64,000 nt of DNA from a virus (lineage: Duplodnaviria; Caudoviricetes). The notes beneath the pieces are model-generated. The model saw nothing but the letters and a program-made list of their open reading frames with translations. It was not told the origin of the DNA and searched no databases. The stretch is taken from positions 32,001 through 96,000 of the IMG/VR virus record IMGVR_UViG_3300028626_000002, one strand, 5' to 3'. Shown in pieces: positions 29,415 through 45,518 of this stretch (its first letter is position 1; each line of letters opens with the position of its first letter). The position numbers and the translations under genes are program-made.

Positions 29415-29903
29415 ATGGCCACACCAGAGGAACTTGCGTACTGCGCAGGGGTAATTGACTCGGATGGGTGCATCCGAGTGGGTCGCGGGGTCAAGCGTGA
29501 CAAGCGAGCGGGCAAACACAGCGCTTACGCTGACTACCACCCCGCTGTCCACGTCGGCCAGGTGGAACCACAAGCGGTTGACCTGCTGAAGCGGGTATTC
29601 GGAGGAAGCATCTACCTGCGCAAGCGCGACAAGAAGGCCCACCGCACCTTGATGGTGTGGCGAGTGAGGGACAACCTTGCGGCGGAATGCGCCAGGCAGT
29701 TGCTGCCCTACCTGCGCATCAAGAAGGCGCAGGCACTGAACTGTATTGCCCTGCAGGACTACCGCCACGAGTACGGCAGGCAGTCAAGGGCGGTGAAGGG
29801 GAGGGCCGGTACTACATTCCGCACAGCCGACGTGATACAGAGGCTCGAGGAGTTCTACGCGGAGTCGAGGAGGCTCAACGCAGGGAGCACGGAGGAACCA
29901 TAA
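29415..29903 (+). CDS. Free-standing LAGLIDADG homing endonuclease (single motif)
   Basis: LAYCAGVIDSDG; FGG; LLPYL.IKK.QA; atypical codons. Confidence 0.85.
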   Translation: MATPEELAYCAGVIDSDGCIRVGRGVKRDKRAGKHSAYADYHPAVHVGQVEPQAVDLLKRVFGGSIYLRKRDKKAHRTLMVWRVRDNLAAECARQLLPYLRIKKAQALNCIALQDYRHEYGRQSRAVKGRAGTTFRTADVIQRLEEFYAESRRLNAGSTEEP

Positions 29904-31678
29904 TGGCCAACAAGACGCTGTTCAAGTCCACGAGTAGCAAGCGTCCCCCCACGGACACGACCAACGAGGCCGGGGGCCGGGCATACAACAGGGACTCTCG
30001 CCTCGCGCTCGCGCAGCTCAGTGCAACCGGCTGCCTCGGCGGCACGTTCTACACGAGCCCCGAACAGGAGCTGGCGACCATCCTGGACCTCTGTGGCCAG
30101 AACTCCCCCGAGTTCGTGGCCAAGGCCGCCGTCTACGCCCGCAAGCGCGGGTTCATGAAGGACGCCCCCGCCCTGATGGTGGCGCACCTGGCGTCGCTGC
30201 AGACCGCGGAGGGCCGGAACGCCTTCACGCAGGCGTTCCCGCTCGTCATGGACAACGCGAAGATGGTCCGGAACTTCGTCCAGATCATCCGTTCCGGGCA
30301 GGCCGGCCGCAAGTCGTTCGGTTCCCGGCCCAAGAAGCTGATCCAGGCGTGGTTCAACAACATCCCGGACCACGCGCTGTTCAACTCCAGCATCGGGCAG
30401 GACCCGTCGCTGGGGGACATCATCAACCTGGTCCACCCGCTGCCCAAGACGGACTCCCGCCGGGCCTTGTACGGCTACCTGAAGGGCACCGAGGGCATCA
30501 CCCGGGAGGCGTTCGACCGGCTGCCGCAGGCCGAGCGGTTCAACCGGCATGGCGACCCGCGCTTCTACTTCTCCGACGACCTGCCGCCCCTGGTGCAGGC
30601 CTACGAGCAGCTGAAGCGCGGCGCGTGGGACGGCGAGCAGCTGCCGCGGGTCAACTTCCAGATGCTGACCTCGCTGAAGCTGTCGAAGGACCAGTGGGCC
30701 GAGGTGGCCATGACGATGTCGTGGTACGCCCTGCGGATGAACCTGAACACCCTGCTGCGGCATGGCGTGTTCGACATCCCGGGGATGACGCCGAAGATCG
30801 TCGCCCGGCTGACGGACCCGGAGGCCATCCGCAAGGCCAAGGCCTTCCCGTACCAGCTGCTGACCGCGTACCTCTACGCGGACGACAAGCTGCCGCGCGC
30901 GGTCAAGAACGCCCTGCAGGACGCCATGGAGGTGGCCTGCGAGAACGTCCCGCTCATCGGGAGCGGCCGCATCCTCATCTGCCCGGACGTGTCCGGGTCG
31001 ATGCGCGAGCCCATCACCGGCAAGCGGGACCAGGTGTCGAAGATCAACCGCATCCACGTGGCGGCGCTCATCGCCGCGGCGCTGATGCGGAAGAACCCGG
31101 ACGCGGACATCCTGCCGTTCGCCAACGACGTGCGCGGGGACATCCAGTTCAACCCCCGCGACAGCATCATGACGAACGCCCAGCGCGTCTACGACGCGGC
31201 CGCCGGCGGAACCCGCATGGCCGCGCCGCTGCTCCTGGCCAACCGGGAGCAGCGGAAGTACGAGGCGGTGGTCTTCGTCTCGGACAACGAGTCCTGGATG
31301 GACAGCGAGGGTCGGCACTACGGCCCCTGCGGGAAGCAGCTGTGGTCGAACCCCCTGTTCCAGCACCCGACCACCAAGGACTGGGGGGCGACGCAGACCC
31401 TGGAGGAGTGGAACACCTTCTCCCGGCGCAACCACGGCGCCAAGCTGGTGTGCGTCGACCTGACGCCGGACACCACCGTGCAGTGCATCGACCGGGCGGA
31501 CATCCTCAACGTCGGCGGCTTCTCCGACGCGGTGTTCGACGTCATCGACTCGTTCGCGAAGGGCGACCTGACCCCGGAGCACTGGGTGGGCGAGATCGAG
31601 CGCATCAACCTGCACCAGTTCGACCCGACCCCACACGAGGTGGGCCAGGTCGAGGAATCGGCCGAGCCGCTGGCCTAA
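29903..31678 (+). CDS. rsr: Ro60/Rsr TROVE-vWA RNA-binding protein (591 aa)
   Basis: NEAGG.AY, G.LGGTFY, ALRMNLNTL.RHG, FPYQL, MIDAS DVSGSM, SDNESW, VGGFSD.VF. Confidence 0.92.
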   Translation: MANKTLFKSTSSKRPPTDTTNEAGGRAYNRDSRLALAQLSATGCLGGTFYTSPEQELATILDLCGQNSPEFVAKAAVYARKRGFMKDAPALMVAHLASLQTAEGRNAFTQAFPLVMDNAKMVRNFVQIIRSGQAGRKSFGSRPKKLIQAWFNNIPDHALFNSSIGQDPSLGDIINLVHPLPKTDSRRALYGYLKGTEGITREAFDRLPQAERFNRHGDPRFYFSDDLPPLVQAYEQLKRGAWDGEQLPRVNFQMLTSLKLSKDQWAEVAMTMSWYALRMNLNTLLRHGVFDIPGMTPKIVARLTDPEAIRKAKAFPYQLLTAYLYADDKLPRAVKNALQDAMEVACENVPLIGSGRILICPDVSGSMREPITGKRDQVSKINRIHVAALIAAALMRKNPDADILPFANDVRGDIQFNPRDSIMTNAQRVYDAAAGGTRMAAPLLLANREQRKYEAVVFVSDNESWMDSEGRHYGPCGKQLWSNPLFQHPTTKDWGATQTLEEWNTFSRRNHGAKLVCVDLTPDTTVQCIDRADILNVGGFSDAVFDVIDSFAKGDLTPEHWVGEIERINLHQFDPTPHEVGQVEESAEPLA

Positions 31679-31774: not shown

Positions 31775-32287
31775 GTGAGCAGCGACTCGAAGTCCACCTT
31801 CGTTCAGGACCTCCGTACGAAGTTCGGCACGGAGCCGTTCACCGACAGCAAGGACCCCAAGAACGGCAGCATCCTGTACCTCCGGGTCGGCAAGGGCGCC
31901 GACACCTGGATCGTGACCGTCAACTACCAGCTCTACGCCCCCCGGAAGCCGCAGGGCAGCCACCTCGTCACGTACGGGGTGTCCGTCCGGAACCCCCGCG
32001 ACTCCTACCACCGCGAGTACGGCCAGGCTGTGGCGTGGATGCGTCGCAGGGAGGCGGACCGCACTTTCCTCAGCGGCCCCCGGCGGGCGTTCTGGGGCAA
32101 CATGACCCTCGAGGACGGCGTCGCGGAGGCCGGCCGCTCGGGCGTCACCAAGGCGGTCATCGCCAGGGTCACCAAGCACCTCTCCACGGACGAGTACGTG
32201 CCCATGCCGCTGCGGCTCGCCACGGTGGCGGCCACGCAGGACTGGGCCAACAGGCAGCAGGAGAAGGAGGAACACGCGCATGCTTGA
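31775..32287 (+). CDS. Hypothetical protein
   Basis: GAGGA RBS + GTG; codon usage. Confidence 0.55.
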   Translation: MSSDSKSTFVQDLRTKFGTEPFTDSKDPKNGSILYLRVGKGADTWIVTVNYQLYAPRKPQGSHLVTYGVSVRNPRDSYHREYGQAVAWMRRREADRTFLSGPRRAFWGNMTLEDGVAEAGRSGVTKAVIARVTKHLSTDEYVPMPLRLATVAATQDWANRQQEKEEHAHA

Positions 32288-32768
32288 CCAGCTCCAGGAA
32301 CAGAACCTTCCCGGCACCGGCCCGCACTCCGGCGTGGGCAGCTACGAGGTCCGCGAGGCCCCCGTGGTCATCCCCGACCCCGATGGGGGCGAGGGCACCC
32401 CCGCCACCGTCCCGTACGTGGCCTTCCAGCCGGCCGTGGTCGTCACCGCGGGTCCCGCCGAGATCGCCGCCGCCGAGGGCAGGGACCTCGAGGGCACGGG
32501 CTCCGGGGTGGTCAGCGCCACGGCCCTCAGCGCCTCCCGCCCCGACCAGAACGCCGACTGCATCCCGCCCGAGGACCTGTTCAAGGCCGTGACCGAGGGC
32601 AATGGCGTGGACATCTACGTGCGCCAGCGCGGGGTCGTCCTGAAGTACCGGGTCGTCATCGACGAGCTCCCCGACGAGGGCATCACGTTCGGGGCCGTCG
32701 AGAACAACGGCACGCTCGACGAGATCGGCTACGCCAACTACGACGACCACCCCACCTCCATGGGGTAG
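32280..32768 (+). CDS. Hypothetical acidic protein
   Basis: RBS AGGAGG; overlaps previous stop. Confidence 0.55.
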   Translation: MLDQLQEQNLPGTGPHSGVGSYEVREAPVVIPDPDGGEGTPATVPYVAFQPAVVVTAGPAEIAAAEGRDLEGTGSGVVSATALSASRPDQNADCIPPEDLFKAVTEGNGVDIYVRQRGVVLKYRVVIDELPDEGITFGAVENNGTLDEIGYANYDDHPTSMG

Positions 32769-32786
32769 CGGTACAACGCAGGAAGT

Positions 32787-32797
32787 TGTGGTATAAC
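32787..32797 (+). promoter_or_regulatory. Putative promoter of the ncRNA array
   Basis: TGTGGTATAAC about 10 nt before the first Y-like unit; motif recurs in other intergenic gaps. Confidence 0.55.
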
Positions 32798-32807
32798 AAG
32801 CATGGAA

Positions 32808-32863
32808 GGCCGAATGCTCGCCGGGTCTACAGGCGATGAAGACTCGGCACCAGGTCGTCGGCC
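32808..32863 (+). ncRNA. Y RNA-like unit 1 (minimal)
   Basis: GGCCGAATGC...TCGTCGGCC terminal stem; inner stem GCCGGGTC/GACTCGGC. Confidence 0.7.
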
Positions 32864-32940
32864 AGCCCACACGGGGGACAAGAGAGCCCGGAGGAGGAAA
32901 CTCCTACCGGGACCCCCCGCGGGGCAAGCTCCTTGACAAT

Positions 32941-33307
32941 GGGGGTGACCCGGTTTCGACAGGGCGAAGCAGACATGCAGCAGCGCGCCGTGGTTGGTCA
33001 GCAGGCCACGTAAAAAGCCGACCAGAGCAAACTGCCAACTTCAACACCTTCACCGAGGACTCGCTCTTCGGTGGCAAGCTGAAGCCCCTGGCCGCGGTCG
33101 AGGGATTCGTCCCGACGACCAACGCCTCGCAGTTCGCCTACGCCTGACGGTTCATCCGCTGGCGGGTTGCTGGACCTGAAAACCAGCTGGGCACGCAGCC
33201 CCGAGTAGAGCTGCAGAGTGCCACGTCCTCACCATGACGTGGCTACGCACGTAGACGCTGTATCAAGCACGTTCTGGACTGGGGTTCGACTCCCCACACC
33301 TCCACCA
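32941..33307 (+). ncRNA. ssrA: tmRNA; tag ANFNTFTEDSLFGGKLKPLAAVEGFVPTTNASQFAYA* at 33034-33147
   Basis: 5' GGGGGTG pairs with 3' CACCTCC-A-CCA including G3:U70; GGTTTCGAC 5' motif; T arm GGGG-TTCGACT-CCCC; resume context AAACT|GCC. Confidence 0.93.
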
Positions 33308-33523
33308 TGCCGGTGCCCGTTGGCAGAACCCCGGGTTTCGCAACCAGGGGGATGGCGGGAAGCGACACCGGCAGCTGCACGCGTCGTTGGCAATGTCTCC
33401 GGGGCACCGGGGTTCGCCGCAAGGCCGACCCCACCGCCCCGGGGCATGCAGCACGACTCTTTACGGCTTGACAGCCGGCAGCAACCGTGGCACCTTCAGC
33501 GTGTCACTGGCTCTTTGCAACGT

Positions 33524-33588
33524 GCCTGGCCGAATGCCTAGCGGGGGTACTACCATTCACGTTCCCTCGCGCCTCATCGTCGGCCGGC
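33524..33588 (+). ncRNA. Y RNA-like unit 2 (minimal)
   Basis: GGCCGAATGC...TCGTCGGCC; inner stem GCGGGGGTAC/GTTCCCTCGC. Confidence 0.75.
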
Positions 33589-33598
33589 TTGAATCGTT

Positions 33599-33711
33599 CC
33601 GCTGAATGTCGTGAGCGGCTACTGGGCGGGCCTCAGAAGCGAGGGTCAAGGTCGGTTGGAATCCGACCCCATTCACCCGAAAGGGTTGGCCGGCACCATT
33701 ATCGTCAGCGG
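33599..33711 (+). ncRNA. Y RNA-like unit 3 with T-arm-like hairpin
   Basis: CCGCTGAATGT...TCGTCAGCGG; GTCGG-TTGGAAT-CCGAC. Confidence 0.65.
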
Positions 33712-33743
33712 GTCCTCGTTCGTTGACAACCAGTCGCAGACGC

Positions 33744-33880
33744 ACCTGACCGAATGCCTGTTGGGGGTACTTCCACTGCTAATGGAGAGGTCGCAGGTTC
33801 AAGTCCTGCCGTCCGGCTCGCCGGGCGTAGCTCAGCTGGGAGAGCGCTTACGTTCCCTCGACGATATTCGTCGGTCAGGT
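33744..33880 (+). ncRNA. YrlA-like Y RNA unit 4 (permuted tRNA mimic with GCT anticodon arm)
   Basis: ACCTGACCGAATGC...TCGTCGGTCAGGT; TTCCA-CTGCTAA-TGGAG, T arm, loop-closed acceptor stem, then D arm. Confidence 0.85.
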
Positions 33881-33891
33881 TCTACTCGCAT

Positions 33892-34029
33892 CGGGTCGAA
33901 TGCACGTGAGGAGTACATGAGGGCACCGCAGGTCGTGGGTTCAAATCCCACCTCCCCGCCTTCGTACGGGGGGTAGCTCAGCCTGGGAGAGCATCGGTAT
34001 TGAGCTCTTCGCACCCCATCGTCGACCCG
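33892..34029 (+). ncRNA. YrlA-like Y RNA unit 5
   Basis: CGGGTCGAATGC...TCGTCGACCCG; T arm GTGGG-TTCAAAT-CCCAC, closed acceptor, D arm TAGCTCAGCCTGGGAGAGC. Confidence 0.85.
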
Positions 34030-34043
34030 GTTCTTCTGTCACA

Positions 34044-34206
34044 CGTGCCGAATGCCTGCCGGGGTTACTTCAACAGCGCTACCAGGTCCGAATCCTGGGT
34101 CGGCGCCGCAAGGGGCCGTCGAGAGTGTGGATTGGCAGACACCTCCCGCCTTGCCGCAAGGCGACGGGGGCACCCAAGAAAGTCCCCAGCACCAATGGTC
34201 GGCACG
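34044..34206 (+). ncRNA. YrlA-like Y RNA unit 6 (class II-type D arm, extra hairpin)
   Basis: CGTGCCGAATGC...GGTCGGCACG; CCAGG-TCCGAAT-CCTGG; GTGT-GGATTGGCAG-ACAC. Confidence 0.75.
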
Positions 34207-34214
34207 GTTCTCGT

Positions 34215-34349
34215 TGACCAGATGCCCGCTCGGACTACATCACGCGCCGGAGATAGGGGAGCAGCGTCCCCTGCGCCATTCGTGGCGTTCGACCAAAGCA
34301 GGTCGCCGGGCCCGCAAGGGCTACCTCCGAACGAACGAATCGCTGGTCA
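34215..34349 (+). ncRNA. Y RNA-like unit 7 (four-hairpin module)
   Basis: TGACCAGATGC...TCGCTGGTCA enclosing four short hairpins. Confidence 0.65.
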
Positions 34350-34360
34350 TGCGCAACGTC

Positions 34361-34504
34361 ACGAGTCAGATGCCCGTAGGGAGTACACTGAAAATTCTTG
34401 GGCCGCAGGTTCAAATCCTGCCCTCTCCACTCACGGAGAGGTAGCTCAGTTGGTAGAGCAAAGAAGCCGAAAGGCTGCACTCTCTGCACCCTTCGCTGAC
34501 TCGT
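34361..34504 (+). ncRNA. YrlA-like Y RNA unit 8 (tRNA-Phe-like permuted mimic)
   Basis: ACGAGTCAGATGC...TCGCTGACTCGT; CTGAAAA-TTCTT, T arm, closed acceptor, D arm, AAGAA. Confidence 0.85.
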
Positions 34505-34543
34505 CTACTCGCGGGCTGAGCTAGTCAGCCCCTCGCTCGTGTC

Positions 34544-34619
34544 CTTGGTCGAATGCCTCGCGGGTGTACATCAGATTCTGGATCTGACCCAAGTCACTCG
34601 CACTTCGTCGTCGACCAAG
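34544..34619 (+). ncRNA. Y RNA-like unit 9 (lone anticodon-like hairpin, CTG)
   Basis: CTTGGTCGAATGC...TCGTCGACCAAG; TCAGA-TTCTGGA-TCTGA. Confidence 0.75.
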
Positions 34620-34718
34620 CTCAGCTACCCGTGTCCCGCGTCTGCGGCAGGTCCACGCGTCACCATCATCGCCGTTCGCCATGGCTGAACCCACCAACAT
34701 CAACAGGAGCAGGTACAC

Positions 34719-34931
34719 ATGAACGTCCGCATCTTCCGCCTGGGTGGCTCCGGTGCCCGCCAGATCGAGCTGTCCGCCGGCGCCACCGTCGCCGACGCCG
34801 CGCAGGCCGCCGACCTGCCCACCTCCGGCCACACGATCTCCGTGAACGGCCTGGGCGCCGCCCTGAACACCGCCCTGTCGGACGGGGACACGGTCTCCCT
34901 GGTCCCGAAGGTCGAGGCCGGCTCCCTGTAG
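34719..34931 (+). CDS. Ubiquitin-like beta-grasp protein (ThiS/MoaD-like), ends EAG-SL
   Basis: 70 aa; RBS AGGAG; GATVAD, VNG, L.DGD.V.LVP.V.AG. Confidence 0.85.
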   Translation: MNVRIFRLGGSGARQIELSAGATVADAAQAADLPTSGHTISVNGLGAALNTALSDGDTVSLVPKVEAGSL

Positions 34932-34996
34932 CCGCCGCGCCGCGTCCGTCCCCCTGCCTAGCACAGGGCGGGGGGACGGACGTCAAGGAGACCTGC

Positions 34997-36613
34997 ATGG
35001 GCATGTTGCGTAACACCCTGATCAAGCACCCCGGTCTCAGGGCCCAGATGGAATTTCTGGCGGCTCAGCACGGCATCGACATCGAGTTCGTCACCCACGC
35101 GTCCCCCCAGGAAGTCAAGGTCGTTCGTCCGCCGAAGCACGTCGTCGTTCTGTCGTTCGGCAACGACAGCAGCACCCGCGGGTTTAGCGCACTGTACGAC
35201 AAGGAGCGGCTGACGTACGTCGGCCCCTGGAGCGGGTACGGCTCGTACTGCCCCGGGTGCACCTCCGGTATTCCCATCACCGTCCCGGCGGCCGCCGGCG
35301 GCACCAAGACCGTCGGTCTCCGGGTGGGCAACGTCATCTACCTGTACTTCTCCCTCGAGCAGCTGTTCGAGCATGGCACGTCGCTGGCGTGGCAGCCCGA
35401 GGACGCAGGCGGGTACGGCCTCGAGTACGTCGACGGCCTGGGGTACGGCCGGTGGGTGACTGGGGGCGATTCCGTCGCGCTGGTCCGCAAGCTCTTCAAC
35501 GACATCTTCGACAAGCACATGCCGGAAGCGGCGAAGGCCGTCCTGGAGTTCAACTGGGACATCGAGCGGGCGGACTTCGTCACCCGCCAGGCGAGGTTCT
35601 TCGCCACCGTGTTCGAGAAGTGGTCGTCGCGTCTCTCGCAGGTCGAGCAGGAGAAGTGGAACGCCGGCGAGCACCTGCGGACGCTCTGTCGAGAGGAAGC
35701 GCATCTGCGGGCATCCTGCGAGGGCTGGGAGGCCGCCGCGCCCGCCCGGAAGAAGCAGGCGGAGGACGCGTTCGACACGTACATCTCGTACGTCAAGAAC
35801 GGCGTCATCAGCGACGCCCAGTGGGCGGGGTCTACGTTCTCGTTCGTGGTCAACCCGCTGAACGTGGGCGGCGACCACGAGTACGCCACGGAGATGGGGC
35901 CGTGGAGGGTCTCGCTGGACTTCAACACGTGCGCCTGCAGCATCAGCAAGATGGACCACACCGTCCTGTCGTCGTCGGGCTTCTGGCACCCGCACATCAA
36001 CCTGAGCGGGCGCCTCTGCATGGGCAACGCCGACGCGCTGCTGCACGAGGCCGTGGGTCGCTCGGACCTGGTCGGGGCCATCGCCGTCATCCTCGAGTTC
36101 CTGCAGGGGTACAACGAGGACTCCCCGTACTGCCGTATCGAGCAGTGGAACCCCGACTACTCCGATGACGACGACCACGAGAGCTGCTACGAGAACTCGA
36201 GCCCCCATGACTGTGTGTGCTGCTACCGGGACTGCGGGTACCGCGATGACGCCGAGTCGCGGTGCTGGGACTACCACGAGGACACTCCCAAGGACTGCAT
36301 CCGCTGCCGCGACTGCGACTACGTCGACACCGCGGAAGAGAACTGTCACCGTGACCAGGTGAATTGCGGGTACGCCTGGAAGTGCGTGGGCGAGTGCGAG
36401 CTCAGCCGCTGCGCGTACTACCAGGACAGCGACAGCTGCTACGATTCCCACGAAGGCGCCGAATGCACGGACTGCTGCGTGGGCAGCGACTGCAGGCGCT
36501 ACGTGGACTCCGAGGCCGCCGAGGAGCCCGAAGAGGCCCCCGTGGAGCAGGCGGCGGAGCAGATGACACCCGTCGGCGAGGCCGTCCCCGAGACGGTGGA
36601 GGAGACCGCATGA
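34997..36613 (+). CDS. Prokaryotic E2-like protein with N-terminal domain, coiled coil and Cys-rich tail
   Basis: HPHI-x5-LC motif (His 35987, Cys 36017) followed by helix and YN..SPY; operon context. Confidence 0.7.
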   Translation: MGMLRNTLIKHPGLRAQMEFLAAQHGIDIEFVTHASPQEVKVVRPPKHVVVLSFGNDSSTRGFSALYDKERLTYVGPWSGYGSYCPGCTSGIPITVPAAAGGTKTVGLRVGNVIYLYFSLEQLFEHGTSLAWQPEDAGGYGLEYVDGLGYGRWVTGGDSVALVRKLFNDIFDKHMPEAAKAVLEFNWDIERADFVTRQARFFATVFEKWSSRLSQVEQEKWNAGEHLRTLCREEAHLRASCEGWEAAAPARKKQAEDAFDTYISYVKNGVISDAQWAGSTFSFVVNPLNVGGDHEYATEMGPWRVSLDFNTCACSISKMDHTVLSSSGFWHPHINLSGRLCMGNADALLHEAVGRSDLVGAIAVILEFLQGYNEDSPYCRIEQWNPDYSDDDDHESCYENSSPHDCVCCYRDCGYRDDAESRCWDYHEDTPKDCIRCRDCDYVDTAEENCHRDQVNCGYAWKCVGECELSRCAYYQDSDSCYDSHEGAECTDCCVGSDCRRYVDSEAAEEPEEAPVEQAAEQMTPVGEAVPETVEETA

Positions 36614-37719
36614 AGGCCGTCAGCAACGGCACTGTCCGGGTGAAGATCCTGGACCGCGAGTACCGCAAGCTCGACGCCTGGGCCCGCCTCGCCACCGGCG
36701 AGATTTCGGCCCTGGGCATGGTCGAGCTGGAGAGCGATGGTCCCCTGATCACCAGCCTCTTCATGCCCCGGCAGGTCTGCACGGGAGCCAGCAGCGACAT
36801 GAACCAGGAGGACGTGGGCGCCTACCTCTGCGAGCTGATGGCGCGCGGGGAGGAGGGCAAGCTCCGCGCCTGGGTCCACAGCCACGGTGACCTGGGGGTT
36901 TTCTGGTCCGGCACCGACCAGAACACCATCAAGGACCTGGGCAGCGATCCGTACCTGGTCTCCGTCGTCGTCAACCGTAAGGGCGAGTACAAGGCCCGCA
37001 TCGACATCAACAGCCCGTTCAAGGTCACGATGGAGGACCTGAGCCTCGTGGTGGTGTACCGGGCGGACAAGGACCTCGAGGACGAGTGCAGGGCGGAGCT
37101 GGCCGCGAAGGTCACCTCCCCGGCGCCCAGCAGCACGCTCGGACGCTTCTCCGACCGGTTCGCCGGCTTCCGGGACCCGCGCATGTCCTTCGGCCAGGGG
37201 TGGCCCCGGGACAAGGATGACGACCGCCCTTTCGCGGGAAGCGCGGCAAGCAGCGACGCGGGGGCCGCGGCCGCGCGGAGCGAGGCGACCCCGGACGTCC
37301 ATGACGAGGGGGAGGAGTCCTCCCTCGACTCGTACACGGCCCTGGAGCAGCGCTACGGGTACCTCTACGATCTCGAGGACCTCGTCGAGTTCGCACACCG
37401 CGCCGGAGGCGACCTGACCCTGTACACCGCGACGGGGTTCAAGGGCGAGGCCGTCACCTTCCGCACCGAGAGCGAGCTGGACAAGGCCCACGAGATCGGC
37501 ATGATGGACTCCCTGGCCTACGAGGTGTACTACCGGGCCCTCAACGAGTTCCGCGACCTGACCCTCCGGGGGCTGGAGGAGGCCATCGACGCGGCCTGGA
37601 CGCGGTACGACATCGACGACCCGAACAGCGGCAGGCGGCTGGAGGACGAGGACGAGGACGAGGACGAGGACCCGACGCCCCCCTCGGCGGAGGACCTGCA
37701 GGAGGCGTACACGGGATGA
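36610..37719 (+). CDS. JAB/MPN metallo-isopeptidase with acidic extension
   Basis: N-terminal Glu (GEISALG); HSH-x7-S-x2-D (WVHSHGDLGVFWSGTD). Confidence 0.85.
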   Translation: MKAVSNGTVRVKILDREYRKLDAWARLATGEISALGMVELESDGPLITSLFMPRQVCTGASSDMNQEDVGAYLCELMARGEEGKLRAWVHSHGDLGVFWSGTDQNTIKDLGSDPYLVSVVVNRKGEYKARIDINSPFKVTMEDLSLVVVYRADKDLEDECRAELAAKVTSPAPSSTLGRFSDRFAGFRDPRMSFGQGWPRDKDDDRPFAGSAASSDAGAAAARSEATPDVHDEGEESSLDSYTALEQRYGYLYDLEDLVEFAHRAGGDLTLYTATGFKGEAVTFRTESELDKAHEIGMMDSLAYEVYYRALNEFRDLTLRGLEEAIDAAWTRYDIDDPNSGRRLEDEDEDEDEDPTPPSAEDLQEAYTG

Positions 37720-40885: not shown

Positions 40886-40943
40886 GTTGTTCTGCAACCT
40901 GCCGGAATGGTACCATCAAGCTCGGTAGGAGGTGCGTGGGCAA

Positions 40944-43900
40944 ATGGCGATCAGTTATGACGCAAAGGCGACGGTCGACTCCCTGATCAACACGGTTGCC
41001 AAGCGCATCGGGGTCATCTTCCCCATCGAAGGGCGGCAGCACACGCTCGAGGTGCAGGACGTGCAGGCCTCGGGCGACTGGGACATGAAGGACATCGACG
41101 GGTACATGCGTGCCAAGCTCCACGGACGCACGTGGGGCCTGCCTATCACCGGCACGCTCGTCGTGCGGGACAAGGCGACGGGCAAGGTGCTCGACCGCAA
41201 GCAGAACGCCCGCCTGATGACCCTGCCCGTGATGACCCGGCACTTCTCGTACATCGTGGACGGCAAGGAGTTCGACGCCACCCGTCAGTGGCGCCTGAAG
41301 GCCGGCGTGTACCACCGTGTGAAGGCGAACGGTCAGCTGGAGGCCCAGTGGAACCTCAGCGAGGGGCGCGGCTTCCACACCGCCTTCGACCCCGCTCGGC
41401 ACAAGTTCACGATGCAGTACGCGTCGTCCACCGTGTCGCTGTACCCGGTCCTGCGTGCTCTGGGCACGTCGGATGCCGAGATCAGCCGGGCATGGGGGCC
41501 GGACCTGCTCGAGGGCAATGTCGGGTCTCCCGCGACCAGCGCCAGGGACCTCACGAAGCTCTACAAGGCCATCACCGGCAAGCCCCCGGCGGACGAGAAG
41601 GAGATGCTGCTGACCATTCGCGACACGTTCGCGAAGACGGCCATGCGCCCCGACGTCAACAAGATCACCCTCGGCCGGCCCGACGACCGGGTCACCCCTG
41701 GTGGGCTGCTGCAGTCCTCCAAGCGCCTGTTGGACATGTCCCGGGGCAAGGGGGAGCCCGATGCCCGCGACAGCGTGGTGTTCAAGGAGCTGCTGGACAT
41801 CGACGACTTCGTCGACGACCGCCTCGTGGCGATGACCCGCAAGATCCAGGGCAAGGTGCGCAACCGACTGGACCACGAGAACAAGGTCGACGCCATCTAC
41901 TCCGCGGACTACATGAACCACCCCGTCAAGACGTTCTTCACGGGGATGTCGCTGGCGGAGCAGCCGCGGCAGGTGAACCCCGTCGACATGTTCAGCTCCA
42001 TGACGAAGACCACGGTCATGGGCGAGGGCGGCATCCAGTCTTCCCACGGTGTGCCCCTCGAGGCACGCATCCTCGACAACAGCCACGTGGGCGTGCTGGA
42101 CCCCATCCACAGCCCCGAGGGCGGGAAGGTGGGCATCAACCTGCATCTGGCCCTGGGCGCCGGCAAGCAGGGCAGGGAACCCACGCTCTACGTGCGCGAC
42201 CCGGCAACCGGCAAGATCGAGACCAAGACCGTGCAGGACCTGGAGCCCCTGACCCTGGCGTTCCCCGACCAGTTCATCCGCCGGCCGGACGGCAAGATGC
42301 AGCCGGTGGCGAAGATGGTCACCGCCCTGGGGCCGGGCAACGAGATCGTGCGGGTGCCGGCGTCGAAGGTGGACTTCGTCTTGCCGACGCCCAAGGCCAT
42401 GTTCAGCATCACCGGCAACCTCGTCCCGTTCCTCCAGAACACCTCCGGCCCGCGCGTGTCCTACGCGATGCACCACATGGAGCAGGCCCTGGCACTGAAG
42501 TACCGGGAGCAGCCCCTCATCGCGGTGGCCTCCGGCGGTGAGCGCGCCCCCACCTTCGAGGACCTCGTCGGCAGGTACTTCACCTCCCGGGCTCCCGTGG
42601 ACGGCCGCGTCGTGCGCGTCGCCAAGGACCACATCAGCATCCGGGGGACCGACGGCAAGCTCTACAAGGAGCCGCTGTACGTCGACTACCCGCTGAACGA
42701 GAAGTCGGCGTTCATCAACAGCGAGCCGGTGGTCAAGGCGGGCGACAAGGTCGAGAAGGGACAGGTCGTCGCGGACACGAACCACACCCGGGACGGGCAG
42801 CTGGCCCTGGGCGTGAACCTCAAGACCGCGTACATGCCCTACCTCTCGAACACCTACGACGACGCCATCGTCATCTCGGAGTCGGCGTCGCAGAAGCTCA
42901 CGTCGCAGCACCTGTACAAGGAGCGCCTGGACGTCGACGAGGACATCACCGTCGACAAGGCCAAGTACCGGGCCATGTACCGCGACCGTCTGGACGACCG
43001 GCAGGCGAAGCAGCTGGACAACGAGGGTGTGGTACAGGAGGGCACCGTCGTACAGCCCGGGGACGTGCTGGTGACGGCTCTGCGGAAGCGCAGCCCCACC
43101 GAGGAAGAGCTGCTGGTCCGCGGCATCGCGAAGAGTCTGGCCCGGCCCTTCGCCGACGTGGCCGTGCGGTGGGAGAGCCAGTACCCGGGCGTGGTCAAGC
43201 GTGTGGTGAAGAACGGGGACAACATCCAGGTTCACGTGGCCAGTGAGGAGCCGGCCGGCGTGGGCGACAAGCTCTGCTTCGACCCCGAGACCGAGTACCT
43301 GGTGGAAGGCAAGGGCTGGGTGAAGAGCCCGCTGCTCACGCCGGACGACCGAGTGCTCACGTACAAGGCCCCCGAGAACCCCAGCCACCGCCGGTCCACC
43401 GCGGATGGGTGGCTCGAGTGGCAGTACCCGACACGGGTCGTGGAGTTCGACCACGACGGCCAGATGTACCGCGTGCTGACGGCCGAGATCGACCAGTTCG
43501 TGACGCCGAACCACAACCTCTACGTGAAGGTGCTGACGCGTGACCATCAGACCCTCCGGCAGAACCGCTTCCGGCTGGTGCAGGCCAGGAAGGTGCTGGG
43601 CAAGCCCGTCGTGCACGCGCAGTACGGCGCCAACGAGAATGTCCATGAGCCGGCCTCCCTGGAGTTCGGCAAGCGGACGGTGCCCACGCGGTCGTACCTG
43701 AAGCTGCTGGCCCACCTGTTCCGTCACGGCATCCGCCGGGACCAGCTGGTGTTCTTCCCCGGCAACGGCTACTCGGCGTCCTGCCGGCAGGCCATGGACG
43801 AGTGCGGCATCACGTACTCCATCCGCACCGTGGACAGCCGCGGCGGGCTGCTGACGAGCGACCCGCTGGTCTGCGACGTGGACTTCGAGAACAGCCTCCC

Positions 43901-45518
43901 GGCGTTCCTGGACACCCTGCCCACCCGGACCCTCAGCGCGTTCCTCCACGACCTGTTCCGCGGCACCCCGATGCTGTCCACCCAGCGCCACGGGGCCGGG
44001 TGCACCCGCATCGTGAACCGCAGCATGATCGACAGGCTGCAGGAACTGGGCGTCCGCGCCCGGGTGGTGTTCTGCGTGTCCCCCGGCCCGGGGGACAAGT
44101 ACACGGCGTCCATCACCGTTCTCGGCAGTCGCGCGGCGGTGGGGAGCCCCGTCAACTTCGAACGGCGCGGGAAGAACGATGGCCTGGTGCAGTACACCGG
44201 CAAGGTCTACTGCTGCACGGTCCCGAACGGCATCCTGGTGACCCGCCGGAACTTCAAGGTGGTGCTCTCGGGCAACAGCGGCCGGCATGGCAACAAGGGC
44301 GTCATCTCGACGGTCCTGCCTGACGACCAGATGCCGCGCACCAAGGACGGGCCGGTCGACATCATCCTGAACCCCCTCGGCATCCCGAGCCGCATCAACG
44401 TGGGCACGGTCCTCGAGACCAGCCTGTCGAAGGTGGCGAAGAAGGAGGGGCGGCAGATCGCCGTGTCGAACTTCGAGCCCGACCCCTCGAAGCGCATCGT
44501 CCGCAAGACCATTCATGTGGCCCCTCACTCCCGTACCATCCAGACGAAGGAGGGCCCCAAGACCGTCCAGGTGGAGGGATACTCCTATGAGCGCGACTAC
44601 ACGGAAGCGGTCGAGGCGGAACTCGCGAAGGCGGAAATCTCCGAGAAGGAAGAGGTCACGGATCCGGTGTCCGGGAAGAGCGTGGGCAACGTCCTGGTGG
44701 GTTACCAGTACACCATCAAGCATGTCCACCAGGCTGAGAAGAAGCTCGCCGCCCGCTCTGGGGGCCCCGGGTACGACTACGACGCCAACATGGCTCCCAA
44801 GTCGTCCGGCCATGCCAGTGGCCAGTCGATGGGCGAGCTGGGCCTCTACAGCCTGCTGAGCCACGGCGCCCTCAGCCTCATCCGCGAGGGCACCACGTAC
44901 AAGTCCGATGCCTCCCAGAGCGAGGTGTGGACCGCGCTCCAGACCGGTGAGCCCCTGCCCCCGCCGAAGCCCAGCTTCGCCTACGGGAAGTTCCTGTCCC
45001 TGCTGTCGGCCATGGGCGTGGCCGTGGATCGCACGGGCAGTCAGCTGAGCCTGCGGCCGACCACCGACGAGGATGTCCTGAAGCGGTCGAATGGCGAGCT
45101 GAAGGAGTCCACGCTGACCCTCCGCGCCAAGGACCTGAAGCCGGAGGAGGGCGGGCTCTTCGACGAGCGCATCACCGGCGGCATCCGGGGGGACCGCTGG
45201 TGCTTCGCGCACGACACGCTGGTGCTGACCGAGTGGGGTCCCATGCGCATCGGGACTCTCGTCGAGCACCGCATCCAGGTTCGAGTGTGGTCCTACGACT
45301 TCCAGGCGAAGGAGTTCGTGCTGCGACCCATCACCGAGTGGCACCGGAACGAGACCGACCCGTCTGTCGAGCCGGTGGGCACGCTGGTCTACCACACGCC
45401 GTACGGTGTCCTGGAGGCCCTGCACGGCACCTTCAAGCACGAGCTGATGACCGAGGATGGCGGGCGGCGGCCCATGGGTGAATCCGAGGCGCTCCTCTAC
45501 GTGGACCAGGACGCATGA
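40944..45518 (+). CDS. rpoB: Phage RNA polymerase beta subunit fused to beta' N-terminus; cis intein and C-terminal split-intein N-half
   Basis: SPEG.KVGI, LALGVNL, DDAIVIS, GDKL|SGRHGNKG, ILNPLGIPSRINVG, GQSMGELG, then beta'-type KPEEGGLFDERITG. Confidence 0.9.
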   Translation: MAISYDAKATVDSLINTVAKRIGVIFPIEGRQHTLEVQDVQASGDWDMKDIDGYMRAKLHGRTWGLPITGTLVVRDKATGKVLDRKQNARLMTLPVMTRHFSYIVDGKEFDATRQWRLKAGVYHRVKANGQLEAQWNLSEGRGFHTAFDPARHKFTMQYASSTVSLYPVLRALGTSDAEISRAWGPDLLEGNVGSPATSARDLTKLYKAITGKPPADEKEMLLTIRDTFAKTAMRPDVNKITLGRPDDRVTPGGLLQSSKRLLDMSRGKGEPDARDSVVFKELLDIDDFVDDRLVAMTRKIQGKVRNRLDHENKVDAIYSADYMNHPVKTFFTGMSLAEQPRQVNPVDMFSSMTKTTVMGEGGIQSSHGVPLEARILDNSHVGVLDPIHSPEGGKVGINLHLALGAGKQGREPTLYVRDPATGKIETKTVQDLEPLTLAFPDQFIRRPDGKMQPVAKMVTALGPGNEIVRVPASKVDFVLPTPKAMFSITGNLVPFLQNTSGPRVSYAMHHMEQALALKYREQPLIAVASGGERAPTFEDLVGRYFTSRAPVDGRVVRVAKDHISIRGTDGKLYKEPLYVDYPLNEKSAFINSEPVVKAGDKVEKGQVVADTNHTRDGQLALGVNLKTAYMPYLSNTYDDAIVISESASQKLTSQHLYKERLDVDEDITVDKAKYRAMYRDRLDDRQAKQLDNEGVVQEGTVVQPGDVLVTALRKRSPTEEELLVRGIAKSLARPFADVAVRWESQYPGVVKRVVKNGDNIQVHVASEEPAGVGDKLCFDPETEYLVEGKGWVKSPLLTPDDRVLTYKAPENPSHRRSTADGWLEWQYPTRVVEFDHDGQMYRVLTAEIDQFVTPNHNLYVKVLTRDHQTLRQNRFRLVQARKVLGKPVVHAQYGANENVHEPASLEFGKRTVPTRSYLKLLAHLFRHGIRRDQLVFFPGNGYSASCRQAMDECGITYSIRTVDSRGGLLTSDPLVCDVDFENSLPAFLDTLPTRTLSAFLHDLFRGTPMLSTQRHGAGCTRIVNRSMIDRLQELGVRARVVFCVSPGPGDKYTASITVLGSRAAVGSPVNFERRGKNDGLVQYTGKVYCCTVPNGILVTRRNFKVVLSGNSGRHGNKGVISTVLPDDQMPRTKDGPVDIILNPLGIPSRINVGTVLETSLSKVAKKEGRQIAVSNFEPDPSKRIVRKTIHVAPHSRTIQTKEGPKTVQVEGYSYERDYTEAVEAELAKAEISEKEEVTDPVSGKSVGNVLVGYQYTIKHVHQAEKKLAARSGGPGYDYDANMAPKSSGHASGQSMGELGLYSLLSHGALSLIREGTTYKSDASQSEVWTALQTGEPLPPPKPSFAYGKFLSLLSAMGVAVDRTGSQLSLRPTTDEDVLKRSNGELKESTLTLRAKDLKPEEGGLFDERITGGIRGDRWCFAHDTLVLTEWGPMRIGTLVEHRIQVRVWSYDFQAKEFVLRPITEWHRNETDPSVEPVGTLVYHTPYGVLEALHGTFKHELMTEDGGRRPMGESEALLYVDQDA
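43275..44276 (+). mobile_element. Cis intein (334 aa) in RNAP beta
   Basis: Starts CFD; block B VTPNH; block F VYCCTV; ends SGN before Ser; removal restores GDKLSGRHGNKG. Confidence 0.9.
45201..45515 (+). mobile_element. Split intein N-fragment (105 aa)
   Basis: CFAHDTLVLT..G...I..LV, block B GTFKH, then stop with no terminal Asn. Confidence 0.85.

What the first reader, a model, noticed from the sequence alone, without database searches (positions are those of the whole stretch)
33744..34619. Y-RNA modules appear to derive from different tRNA species and keep anticodon loops
Seen: unit 4 has an intact hairpin TTCCA-CTGCTAA-TGGAG (Ser-GCT-type loop) before its T arm. Unit 8 is a cloverleaf opened at the anticodon loop: CTGAAAA-TTCTT ... 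D arm-AAGAA (Phe-GAA-like). Unit 9 shows only TCAGA-TTCTGGA-TCTGA (Gln-CTG-like). Unit 6 has a Leu/Ser-type D arm and unit 5 a Pro-like D loop. In units 4, 5, 6 and 8 the acceptor stem is closed by a loop, so there is no free CCA and they should be unchargeable. Inference: independent tRNA captures, possibly decoys for host anticodon nucleases or tRNA-modifying toxins, or ligands for synthetases or the ribosome.
Basis: partly seen in the sequence, partly recalled or inferred. Interest (0 to 1): 0.78.

Follow-up and report, generated by a model that had tools for sequence, protein, structure and literature searches.

The report
Phage Y RNAs carrying anticodon-arm mimics
This stretch of a large phage genome holds a tandem, transcribed array of Ro60-type Y RNAs whose heads are near-complete tRNA look-alikes with anticodon-style loops, a feature the published YrlA RNAs lack, but the loop triplets do not reveal which tRNA each head came from.

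Summary
Window 33744-34619 holds six of nine tandem YrlA-type Y RNAs, downstream of a phage Ro60 gene and a tmRNA.

- **U4** has a complete anticodon arm (5 bp, loop CUGCUAA).
- **U8** is a cloverleaf opened between positions 31 and 32, with CUGAAAA left 5' of the stem.
- **U9** is a bare anticodon-like stem-loop.
- **U4, U5, U6 and U8** have loop-closed acceptor stems.
- Re-permuted U4 and U8 give perfect 73-nt cloverleaves.

The feature is clade-wide. In 171 phage Ro60 loci I found 225 Y units:

| Set | With 7-nt anticodon-like hairpin |
|---|---|
| tRNA-like heads | 47 of 79 |
| Short heads | 26 of 68 |

Across those 73 loops, U33 is kept in 84%, a purine at 37 in 90% and A38 in 84%. The middle triplet varies freely.

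- U6 has a clear tRNA-Leu D arm and U5 a Pro-like body.
- Across 33 heads the triplet does not match the body's isotype (p = 0.78).
- U4's "Ser" loop sits on a class I body.
- The unit types recur in distant phages.

The decoy function was not tested. Two metatranscriptomes carry RNA contigs over the array. I class this as a new variant of a known kind.

The parts
29657..31678 (+). Phage Ro60 (Rsr/TROVE) gene, the presumed protein partner of the array
   Evidence: Pfam vWA_Ro60 at 1.8e-15 and TROVE at 3.8e-8. PHROG 850 'RNA-binding protein' at 4.8e-35.
32808..32863 (+). Y unit 1: short head, upstream of the tmRNA
   Evidence: Found by my Y-stem scanner. Weak Rfam YrlB match at 32803-32869.
32941..33307 (+). 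tmRNA, embedded in the array (context)
   Evidence: Rfam RF00023, 108.7 bits. RNA contigs at depth about 120.
33526..33587 (+). Y unit 2: Ro-binding stem with a 13-nt head
   Evidence: Scanner hit. Repeat family D1/D2.
33599..33711 (+). Y unit 3: Y stem with a variant ATGT motif. The head has a T-arm-like hairpin GGTCGG-TTGGAAT-CCGACC and no D arm.
   Evidence: Read from the sequence and the fold. Not found by the strict scanner.
33744..33880 (+). Y unit 4, a complete permuted cloverleaf:
- Lower stem 33744-33753 with 33871-33880.
- Upper stem 33759-33767 with 33855-33863.
- Anticodon arm 33771-33787 (loop CTGCTAA).
- T arm 33793-33809.
- Closed 7-bp acceptor 33810-33827.
- D arm 33830-33845.
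The Y stem joins between tRNA positions 26 and 27.
   Evidence: Rfam YrlA 46.4 bits, E = 1.4e-8. The re-permuted sequence is a perfect cloverleaf. The model structure is -57.6 kcal/mol against an MFE of -60.6. ARAGORN miscalls 33750-33817 as tRNA-Ser.
33890..34031 (+). Y unit 5, with a Pro-like body:
- T arm 33935-33951.
- Closed 7-bp acceptor 33952-33973.
- D arm 33976-33992.
- Segment before the T arm 33917-33934, with no anticodon hairpin. Next to L172:7438 it looks like a Pro-type arm with a 3-nt deletion.
   Evidence: Rfam YrlA 40.1 bits. The five nearest tRNAs by body are all Pro. Pro takes 6 of the top 15 in the larger library, p = 1e-4. Orthologues are L056:7198 and L084:7200.
34044..34206 (+). 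Y unit 6:
- T arm 34082-34098 (loop TCCGAAT).
- Hairpin closed by GCAA 34099-34120.
- tRNA-Leu-type D region 34121-34145.
- 7-bp hairpin with a 3-nt loop 34147-34163, in the place of the anticodon arm.
The Y stem sits where the long variable arm of a class II tRNA would be.
   Evidence: D-region local alignments: 12 of the top 12 are Leu (19 of 21 identical), and 19 of the top 20 in the larger library (p = 3e-20). Fold.
34215..34349 (+). Y unit 7: Y stem with a head of four small hairpins that is not tRNA-like
   Evidence: Scanner hit and fold.
34361..34504 (+). Y unit 8, a cloverleaf opened between positions 31 and 32:
- Loop-like 7-mer CTGAAAA 34388-34394.
- 3' strand of the anticodon stem 34395-34399, pairing with 34461-34465.
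- T arm 34405-34421.
- Closed 7-bp acceptor 34422-34441.
- D arm 34444-34459.
- Extra GCC-GAAA-GGC hairpin 34466-34475.
   Evidence: Rfam YrlA 40.7 bits. The re-permuted sequence gives a perfect tRNA-Phe(GAA)-like cloverleaf. The D region is 21 of 21 identical to a phage tRNA-Phe. The trans stem has 5 of 5 pairs.
34544..34619 (+). Y unit 9: Y stem whose head is only an anticodon-like stem-loop, TCAGA-TTCTGGA-TCTGA, at 34571-34587
   Evidence: One of 26 such stem-loop-only heads among 68 short heads.

Best explanation
The region is the 3' two-thirds of a tandem, transcribed array of nine YrlA-type Y RNAs. The array belongs to a large phage from activated sludge and lies just downstream of the phage's Ro60 gene.

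Shown:
- Each unit has the same two-part Ro60-binding stem: lower stem, AUGC, upper stem, UAC. Each carries a different head.
- In U4, U5, U6 and U8 the head is a circularly permuted tRNA mimic with the order T arm, loop-closed acceptor, D arm.
- Unlike published YrlA, many heads in this phage clade also carry an anticodon arm. The Y stem is then attached between positions 26 and 27 (U4), in the opened anticodon loop at 31/32 (U8), or at the variable-arm position of a Leu-type body (U6). Some units display the anticodon stem-loop alone (U9).
- The loops keep the U-turn signature (pyrimidine 32, U33, purine 37, A38). The middle triplet changes even between orthologous units with identical stems, and it does not track the body's isotype.

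Inferred:
- The heads act as tRNA mimics that bring a tRNA-binding host or phage factor to the Ro60 particle, or hold it there.
- That factor reads the anticodon loop as well as the elbow.
- The variable triplet sets which factor or tRNA species is mimicked.
- The bodies stem from a few old tRNA-derived lineages (generic class I, Pro-like, Leu-like), not from fresh captures in this phage.
For: Context:
- A Ro60 gene lies upstream.
- Three units match Rfam YrlA at E = 1e-8 to 1e-6.
- The Y stems and the T, acceptor and D helices covary in 18 aligned units: 26 of 29 pairs show compensatory changes.

Census:
- 225 distinct Y units lie on the Ro60 strand of 171 loci, against 4 on the opposite strand.

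Anticodon arm:
- 47 of 79 tRNA-like heads have it, against a shuffled mean of 12.3. The count peaks sharply at a loop of 7 nt.
- 26 of 68 short heads have it, against a shuffled mean of 5.3.
- U33 occurs in 36/47 and 25/26, a purine at 37 in 42/47 and 24/26, and A38 in 42/47 and 19/26.
- All five stem pairs show changes on both sides.
- Identical stems carry different triplets, for example TCACA/TGTGA with GTT, GCT, TGA and TGT.

Origin of the bodies:
- There is no link between triplet and body (p = 0.78).
- U6 is Leu-type and U5 is Pro-like.
- Re-permuted U4 and U8 are perfect cloverleaves.

Expression:
- Two metatranscriptome runs give RNA contigs at 33698-34361, 34078-34392 and 34409-34875 (depth 6-11) and on the tmRNA (depth about 120).
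- The flanking coding sequence has about zero RNA cover, while a DNA run is flat at 17x.

Literature:
- YrlA 'lacks the anticodon loop' (bioRxiv 10.1101/312249).
Against: - Rfam scores (40-46 bits) are below the YrlA gathering score of 69.
- Nothing here shows binding to Ro60, the RNA ends, or processing. Contigs cannot show ends.
- The census rests on my own pattern scanner. The hairpins were chosen for being paired, so the percentage paired is true by construction.
- Many units are orthologues, so the counts are not independent.
- Fast change of the triplet could be plain neutrality rather than a specificity code.
- Isotype calling from the body alone is weak. Leave-one-out accuracy is 62%, and 0% for Phe, Ile, Lys and Asn.
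- I found no RtcB or RNA ligase gene in the 125-kb record, so there is no link to a repair pathway.
- No relative closer than 48% Ro60 identity was available. Loop conservation for these exact units could therefore not be tested.
Confidence: 0.7

Rival explanations
1. Each head is an independent capture of a different host or phage tRNA species and still carries that tRNA's own anticodon loop (U4 Ser-GCU, U8 Phe-GAA, U9 Gln-CUG). The heads serve as isotype-specific decoys.
For: - U6 has a Leu D arm.
- The U5 family is Pro-like, and orthologue L056:7198 has an exact Pro(UGG) loop.
- The U8 D region is 21 of 21 identical to a phage tRNA-Phe, and its re-permuted form is a perfect Phe-like cloverleaf.
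- The U4 and U9 loops are identical or near-identical to real Ser(GCU) and Gln(CUG) loops in the phage tRNA library.
Against: - Triplet and body are unrelated in 33 heads (p = 0.78).
- U4's body is class I with an Ala-type D arm, and Ser ranks 17th of 20.
- U4-type orthologues carry other triplets.
- In the 686-tRNA library U8 shows no Phe enrichment over the whole body.
- The unit types are shared by phages whose Ro60 is about 45% identical.
Confidence: 0.12
2. The anticodon-like hairpins are left-overs of the tRNA or tRNA-dimer ancestry of Y RNAs (the Sim and Wolin 2018 model, as cited). They have no present function beyond filling out the fold, and the Ro60 particle works through the elbow only.
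For: - The triplet is unconstrained.
- U5 has lost the hairpin, and Leu-type units cap the arm with a tri- or tetraloop (U6; L009:8006).
- About 40% of tRNA-like heads lack the hairpin.
- In known YrlA the conserved positions are in the D and T stems.
Against: - The loop length is fixed at 7 nt, and U33, R37 and A38 are kept while the stems have turned over by compensatory change.
- 26 units consist of nothing but this stem-loop on a Y stem. That is hard to explain as a left-over.
Confidence: 0.18
3. The units are real but permuted or split tRNA genes. RNase P opens the 7-bp acceptor, CCA is added, and the product is charged and decodes. This would replace the ordinary tRNA genes that relatives carry next to Ro60.
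For: - The 125-kb record has no ordinary tRNA gene, while relatives have up to 34 near Ro60.
- U4, U5 and U8 have 7-bp acceptor stems, and U4 and U8 re-permute to cloverleaves of canonical size.
- M. smegmatis YrlA is cut by RNase P and receives CCA.
Against: - The same chassis carries many unrelated triplets without matching identity elements.
- The Y stem would remain attached at 26/27 or 31/32, and no bacterial enzyme set is known that removes it.
- An RNA contig runs uncut through the acceptor loops of U4-U6.
- The record is only about 68% complete, so tRNA genes may lie elsewhere.
Confidence: 0.04

Closest known systems
YrlA (Rfam RF02553; S. Typhimurium YrlA, PDB 6CU1; Chen et al. 2014, PMC4201824; Wang et al. 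2018, bioRxiv 10.1101/312249)
   Same: - It is encoded next to Ro60/rsr on the same strand.
- The 5' and 3' ends form the Ro-binding stem with CGAAUGC ... UAC and UUGUCG motifs.
- The head has the order T arm, loop-closed acceptor, D arm.
- An enterobacterial rsr-yrlBA-rtcB fragment (L177) shows the same stem motifs, and its Rsr is 43.7% identical to this Ro60.
   Different: - Published YrlA 'lacks the anticodon loop', and its anticodon stem runs on into the Ro-binding stem.
- Here U4 and 47 of 79 related heads have a full anticodon arm, with the Y stem attached at 26/27.
- U8 keeps a loop-like 7-mer and U9 is a bare stem-loop.
- The array has nine units, against one to four.
- The scores are below the family's gathering score.
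M. smegmatis YrlA
   Same: It has a 7-bp acceptor stem like a real tRNA, as do U4, U5 and U8.
   Different: It is shown to be cut by RNase P and to receive CCA. Nothing of that kind could be tested here.
D. radiodurans Yrn1
   Same: It was modelled with a possible 'anticodon arm' of 5 bp (Chen 2014).
   Different: - Its loop has 6 nt, the order of its arms differs, and it has no clear D arm.
- The loops here have 7 nt with U33 and R37.
Circularly permuted tRNA genes of red algae and some archaea (cited)
   Same: The acceptor is closed in the transcript, and the ends lie in or near the anticodon arm.
   Different: Those are processed into working tRNAs by a splicing endonuclease and a ligase. 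Here the ends form a conserved Ro60-binding stem, and the triplets do not fit the bodies.
Phage Ro60 systems with Y-like RNAs: Thermus phage phiLo Yrl1/Yrl2 (PMC12135203) and Bas63 gp130 (PMC11482910)
   Same: - Each has a phage Ro60 with adjacent Y-like RNAs or tRNA genes.
- A counter-defence role has been proposed for them: hijacking host PNPase (phiLo), or countering the ppl system (Bas63).
   Different: No anticodon-arm heads or long arrays are described there.

Membership tests
YrlA-type Y RNA | Encoded within a few kb of a Ro60/rsr gene, on the same strand | tested here: met
   The Ro60 gene is at 29657-31678 (+) and the units at 32808-34619 (+).
YrlA-type Y RNA | The 5' and 3' ends pair into a long stem that carries the conserved Ro-binding motif | tested here: met
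   All units share lower stem, AUGC, upper stem, UAC and a 3' UCG(U)CG motif. Both stems covary in 18 units.
YrlA-type Y RNA | tRNA-like head in the order T arm, loop-closed acceptor, D arm | tested here: met
   Met for U4, U5 and U8, and for U6 with a Leu-type D arm. Not met for U7 and U9.
YrlA-type Y RNA | Score at or above the Rfam gathering threshold (69 bits) | tested here: not met
   46.4, 40.7 and 40.1 bits. The anticodon arm is scored as an insertion.
YrlA-type Y RNA | Bound by Ro60, with tRNA-type modifications | not testable with these tools
   Needs pull-down and modification mapping.
Ordinary tRNA gene | Free acceptor ends with a discriminator base, and a score over the Rfam tRNA threshold (29 bits) | tested here: not met
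   The acceptor is closed by a 4-8-nt loop. 33746-33817 scores 24.9 bits. The ARAGORN tRNA-Ser call uses a Y-stem strand as its acceptor.
Ordinary tRNA gene | Anticodon consistent with the body's isotype features | tested here: not met
   U4 has a GCU triplet on a class I body. Across the clade there is no concordance (p = 0.78).
Circularly permuted tRNA gene | A canonical cloverleaf after re-permutation | tested here: met
   U4 and U8 do so.
Circularly permuted tRNA gene | Processed into a mature, chargeable tRNA | not testable with these tools
   RNA contigs span the acceptor loops, but contigs cannot show ends.

The most novel reading that the evidence does not exclude
Phage Y RNAs act as a programmable display of anticodon stem-loops. 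On a conserved Ro60-binding scaffold with a conserved U-turn loop, the variable triplet chooses which anticodon-reading host factor is caught. Candidates are anticodon nucleases, Tgt-like enzymes or position-37 modification enzymes. The caught factor is handed to, or blocked by, the Ro60 (and PNPase) particle. An array of units with different triplets would then be a multi-target counter-defence.
Probability: 0.15. Interest if true: 0.85.

Novelty: new variant of a known kind. Interest (0 to 1): 0.62.

Why it matters
The effector that binds the tRNA-like head of bacterial Y RNAs is still unknown. The published view is that the head mimics only the tRNA elbow and has no anticodon loop.

A large, expressed phage family behaves differently. 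The head often includes a canonical anticodon arm, or consists of nothing else, and its triplet turns over quickly. That points to partners that read the anticodon loop.

This makes the question testable with short RNAs, for example in nuclease, modification-enzyme or Ro60 binding assays using triplet swaps.

Two practical points follow:
- tRNA finders miscall these units as tRNA genes in phage genomes.
- The different attachment points of the Y stem (26/27, 31/32, variable arm) bear on the tRNA-dimer model for the origin of Y RNAs.

Tried and rejected
- **Near-identical DNA in cultured phages:** none found.
- **Closer relatives:** two scans of viral contigs and one of metagenome contigs gave nothing above 48% Ro60 identity. 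Conservation of these exact units could not be tested.
- **First Y-stem scanner:** too loose, with 298 hits against 148 in shuffles. I replaced it with a strict version that gives 225 hits against 4 on the opposite strand.
- **RNAalifold on whole units:** it did not recover the anticodon hairpin, because MAFFT misaligned that part and four rows lack it. I counted pairs on a trimmed alignment instead.
- **Body-only isotype calls for U4 and U8:** these changed with the size of the library. Phe took 3 of the top 8 in the small library but was not enriched in the large one. I make no isotype claim for these two units.
- **Cultured examples:**
  - Myxococcus phage Mx1 (Ro60 41.6% identical) gave no Y unit with my scanner or with Rfam.
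  - Mycobacterium phage Myrna and Gordonia phage Mareelih gave no anticodon-arm unit. Mareelih has one classic YrlA match.
  - The record 'Escherichia phage ECO95 1-6-1' looks like an enterobacterial rsr-yrlBA-rtcB fragment.
- **RNA repair genes:** no RtcB or RNA ligase family match in the 125-kb record, and only a weak 14-bit CCA-adding-like match.
- **RNA cover:** no contigs over 33355-33700 (U2, U3) in either RNA run. I draw no conclusion from that.
- **Papers:** two reviews (PMC10870794, PMC6047535) are not held.
Full report
**Where the region lies.** The window is bases 32001-96000 of a 125,326-base IMG/VR virus record with 66.5% G+C, estimated to be about 68% complete. A Ro60/TROVE gene lies at 29657-31678 on the + strand (Pfam vWA_Ro60 and TROVE, PHROG 850). 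Two small ORFs follow, then a tmRNA at 32941-33307 (Rfam 108.7 bits). After that comes about 1.4 kb without a credible ORF, which ends at a ThiS-like gene at 34719. An RNA polymerase beta-like gene lies at 40932-45518. A DNA run from activated sludge holds the whole stretch. The closest cultured Ro60 is that of Myxococcus phage Mx1, at 41.6% identity.

**The units.** The non-coding tract is a tandem array of Y-RNA-like units with one scaffold.
- The scaffold is a lower stem, AUGC, an 8-9-bp upper stem, UAC, a variable head, the 3' strand of the upper stem, about 7 nt ending in UCG, and the 3' strand of the lower stem.
- Rfam's YrlA model matches U4, U8 and U5 at 46.4, 40.7 and 40.1 bits (E = 1e-8 to 1e-6). 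All are under the gathering score of 69. In U4 the alignment treats the extra hairpin as an insertion.

**Check of the observation.**
- **U4.** After UAC comes TTCCA-CTGCTAA-TGGAG, then AGGTC, a T arm, a 7-bp acceptor closed by CTCG, TA and a D arm. ARAGORN miscalls 33750-33817 as tRNA-Ser(GCT) by using a Y-stem strand as the acceptor. The Rfam tRNA model gives that stretch 24.9 bits, under its threshold.
- **U8.** CTGAAAA comes before TTCTT, and TTCTT pairs 5 of 5 with AAGAA one base after the D arm.
- **U9.** The head is only TCAGA-TTCTGGA-TCTGA.
- **Closed acceptors.** U4, U5, U6 and U8 all have loop-closed acceptor hairpins.
- **Re-permutation.** Put in canonical order, U4 and U8 are called by ARAGORN as perfect 73-nt cloverleaves of standard dimensions.
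- **Energy.** The proposed structures lie 3.0 and 5.4 kcal/mol above the minimum free energy.

**Relatives.** Searches with the Ro60 protein gave about 170 loci from viral and metagenome contigs, none above 48% identity.
- In many of them Ro60 sits inside large tRNA arrays with a tmRNA. This record has no ordinary tRNA gene.
- A strict scanner for the Y scaffold finds 225 distinct units on the Ro60 strand and 4 on the other strand in 1.7 Mb.
- Arrays of four to eight units are common, for example in L022, L078 and L079.
- In an alignment of 18 units, 26 of 29 consensus pairs in the Y stems and the T, acceptor and D helices show compensatory changes.

**The anticodon arm is a clade-wide feature.**

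| Set | With 7-nt-loop hairpin | Shuffled mean (maximum) | U33 | Purine 37 | A38 |
|---|---|---|---|---|---|
| tRNA-like heads with at least 18 nt before the T arm | 47 of 79 | 12.3 (23) | 36 of 47 | 42 of 47 | 42 of 47 |
| Short heads without a T arm | 26 of 68 | 5.3 (12) | 25 of 26 | 24 of 26 | 19 of 26 |

- In the first set the hairpin has at least three closing pairs and lies 4-6 nt before the T arm. Loop sizes of 3 to 9 nt give 19, 16, 14, 4, 47, 8 and 15 hits.
- In the second set the hairpin has at least 4 bp and follows UAC directly. U9 belongs to this class.
- Real tRNAs from the same loci show U33 in 94%, a purine at 37 in 99% and A38 in 68%.
- All five pairs of the stem change on both sides among 14 units. 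Those units were chosen for being paired, so only the variety of pair types is informative.
- The middle triplet is free. There are 27 different triplets in the 47 heads. Units with the same stem carry different triplets, for example TCACA/TGTGA with GTT, GCT, TGA and TGT, and CATGC/GCACG with TTT, GTT, TGA and TCT.
- The literature held here says that YrlA 'lacks the anticodon loop'. It mentions only a possible 6-nt 'anticodon loop' in D. radiodurans Yrn1.

**How the Y stem is attached.** I see several topologies.
- Between positions 26 and 27, with a cis anticodon arm (U4 and most related heads).
- In the opened loop at 31/32, with a trans anticodon stem. This covers U8 and eight other units. 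In four of the five that have a full 7-mer upstream, the 7-mer has U at its second position.
- After a D arm plus a capped hairpin, which is where a class II variable arm would be (U6; L009:8006).
- One unit has the order acceptor, D, anticodon arm, T (L084:6694).

**Do the heads come from different tRNA species?** I built a library of 328 labelled phage tRNAs from the same loci, later enlarged to 686. I compared bodies without the anticodon arm. Leave-one-out accuracy is only 62%, and nil for Phe, Ile, Lys and Asn.
- **U6.** The D region is clearly tRNA-Leu: 19 of 21 positions identical, and 19 of its top 20 matches are Leu (p = 3e-20).
- **U5.** The body is Pro-like. All five nearest tRNAs are Pro in the first library, and 6 of 15 in the larger one (p = 1e-4). 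Its orthologues L056:7198, L064:6572, L011:5137 and L172:7438 have loops ending GGGA, as real tRNA-Pro does. L056:7198 has TTTGGGA exactly. U5 itself has no hairpin. Next to L172:7438 its segment before the T arm looks like a Pro-type arm with a 3-nt deletion. That is my own reading and is not tested further.
- **U4.** It has an Ala-type D arm (7 of the top 20, p = 1e-6) and a class I body. Ser ranks 17th of 20. The units closest to it in body, L086:6939 and L084:6849, carry other loops, as do the similar units L083:2557, L064:6572 and L014:1696.
- **U8.** Its D region is 21 of 21 identical to one phage tRNA-Phe, but the whole body is generic.
- **Across the clade.** Over 33 heads, the isotype implied by the triplet has a mean rank of 10.3 of 20 among body matches. 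A permutation test gives p = 0.78.
- **Age of the types.** U4-type and U5-type units occur together in L056 and L084, so the types predate these phages.

**Expression.** Two activated-sludge metatranscriptome runs hold exact contigs over several parts of the region.
- Over the tmRNA the depth is about 120.
- Over 33698-34361 (U4 to U7 in one 664-nt contig), 34078-34392, 34456-34628 and 34409-34875 the depth is 3-11.
- There is next to nothing over 31834-32886 and 34876-35100, while a DNA run is flat at 17x.
- This uneven pattern fits transcription rather than carried-over DNA. Contigs show neither ends nor strand.

**Function.** Nothing here tests function.
- Known Y RNAs tether or gate Ro60, and the partner of YrlA is unknown.
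- A phage Ro60 with its Y-like RNAs can assemble with host PNPase. A Ro60-like phage protein counters a defence system.
- The conserved loop frame with a free triplet makes a factor that reads the anticodon loop the most economical guess. It does not show that the heads are decoys.
- 'Unchargeable' needs a caveat. M. smegmatis YrlA, which also has a 7-bp acceptor, is cut by RNase P and gets CCA.

**Verdict.** The heads are tRNA-derived, of a few old types, and they keep anticodon-style loops, but the triplets do not report their origin. I class this as a new variant of YrlA-type Y RNAs. It is of moderate to high interest because it narrows the search for the missing effector.

Noticed in passing
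window 1-64000 and the whole 125-kb record: The record has no ordinary tRNA gene. ARAGORN gives only the false tRNA-Ser in U4 and a doubtful SeC call at record position 114996. Relatives carry up to 34 tRNA genes around Ro60.
   Followed up: partly
loops of 73 Y units in L004-L174: G34-U35 triplets (GTT, GTA, GTC), the motif read by Tgt and colicin E5, make up 19 of 73 loops, and CTGTTAA alone occurs 14 times. C at position 36 is rare: 3 of 47, against 26% in real phage tRNAs. Many units are orthologues, so I give no statistics.
   Followed up: partly
window 33355-33700 (U2, U3): Neither metatranscriptome run has an RNA contig here, although U4-U9 and the tmRNA are covered.
   Followed up: no
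window 34409/34410 (start of the T loop of U8): One RNA contig ends here directly against Illumina adapter sequence. A fragment end or a reverse-transcriptase stop therefore lies at the 5' edge of the T loop (table 7).
   Followed up: no
L084:6694-6840 and L079:8151-8275: Y units that enclose an almost unpermuted tRNA (acceptor hairpin, D arm, anticodon arm GTGAAAA or CTAACAA, T arm). ARAGORN calls them tRNA-Phe and tRNA-Val. L079:8151 has about 17 nt between the anticodon arm and the T arm, like a long variable arm.
   Followed up: partly
L177 (OR845705.1, 'Escherichia phage ECO95 1-6-1', UNVERIFIED_ORG): This 1748-base record carries the 3' half of an Rsr gene, three Y RNAs with CGAATGC...CTAC stems and the start of an RtcB-like ORF. 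It looks like an enterobacterial rsr-yrlBA-rtcB operon fragment, not phage DNA.
   Followed up: partly
L176 6596-6740 (Gordonia phage Mareelih): The annotated tRNA-Gln and tRNA-Leu overlap each other, and Rfam places a YrlA match (52 bits) at 6692-6791. The tRNA-Leu annotation there is probably a Y RNA.
   Followed up: no
window 34719-34931 and downstream: A 70-aa ThiS-like ORF starts 100 nt after U9 and is covered by the same RNA contig as U9. A weak Prok-JAB match lies in 36364-37719.
   Followed up: no
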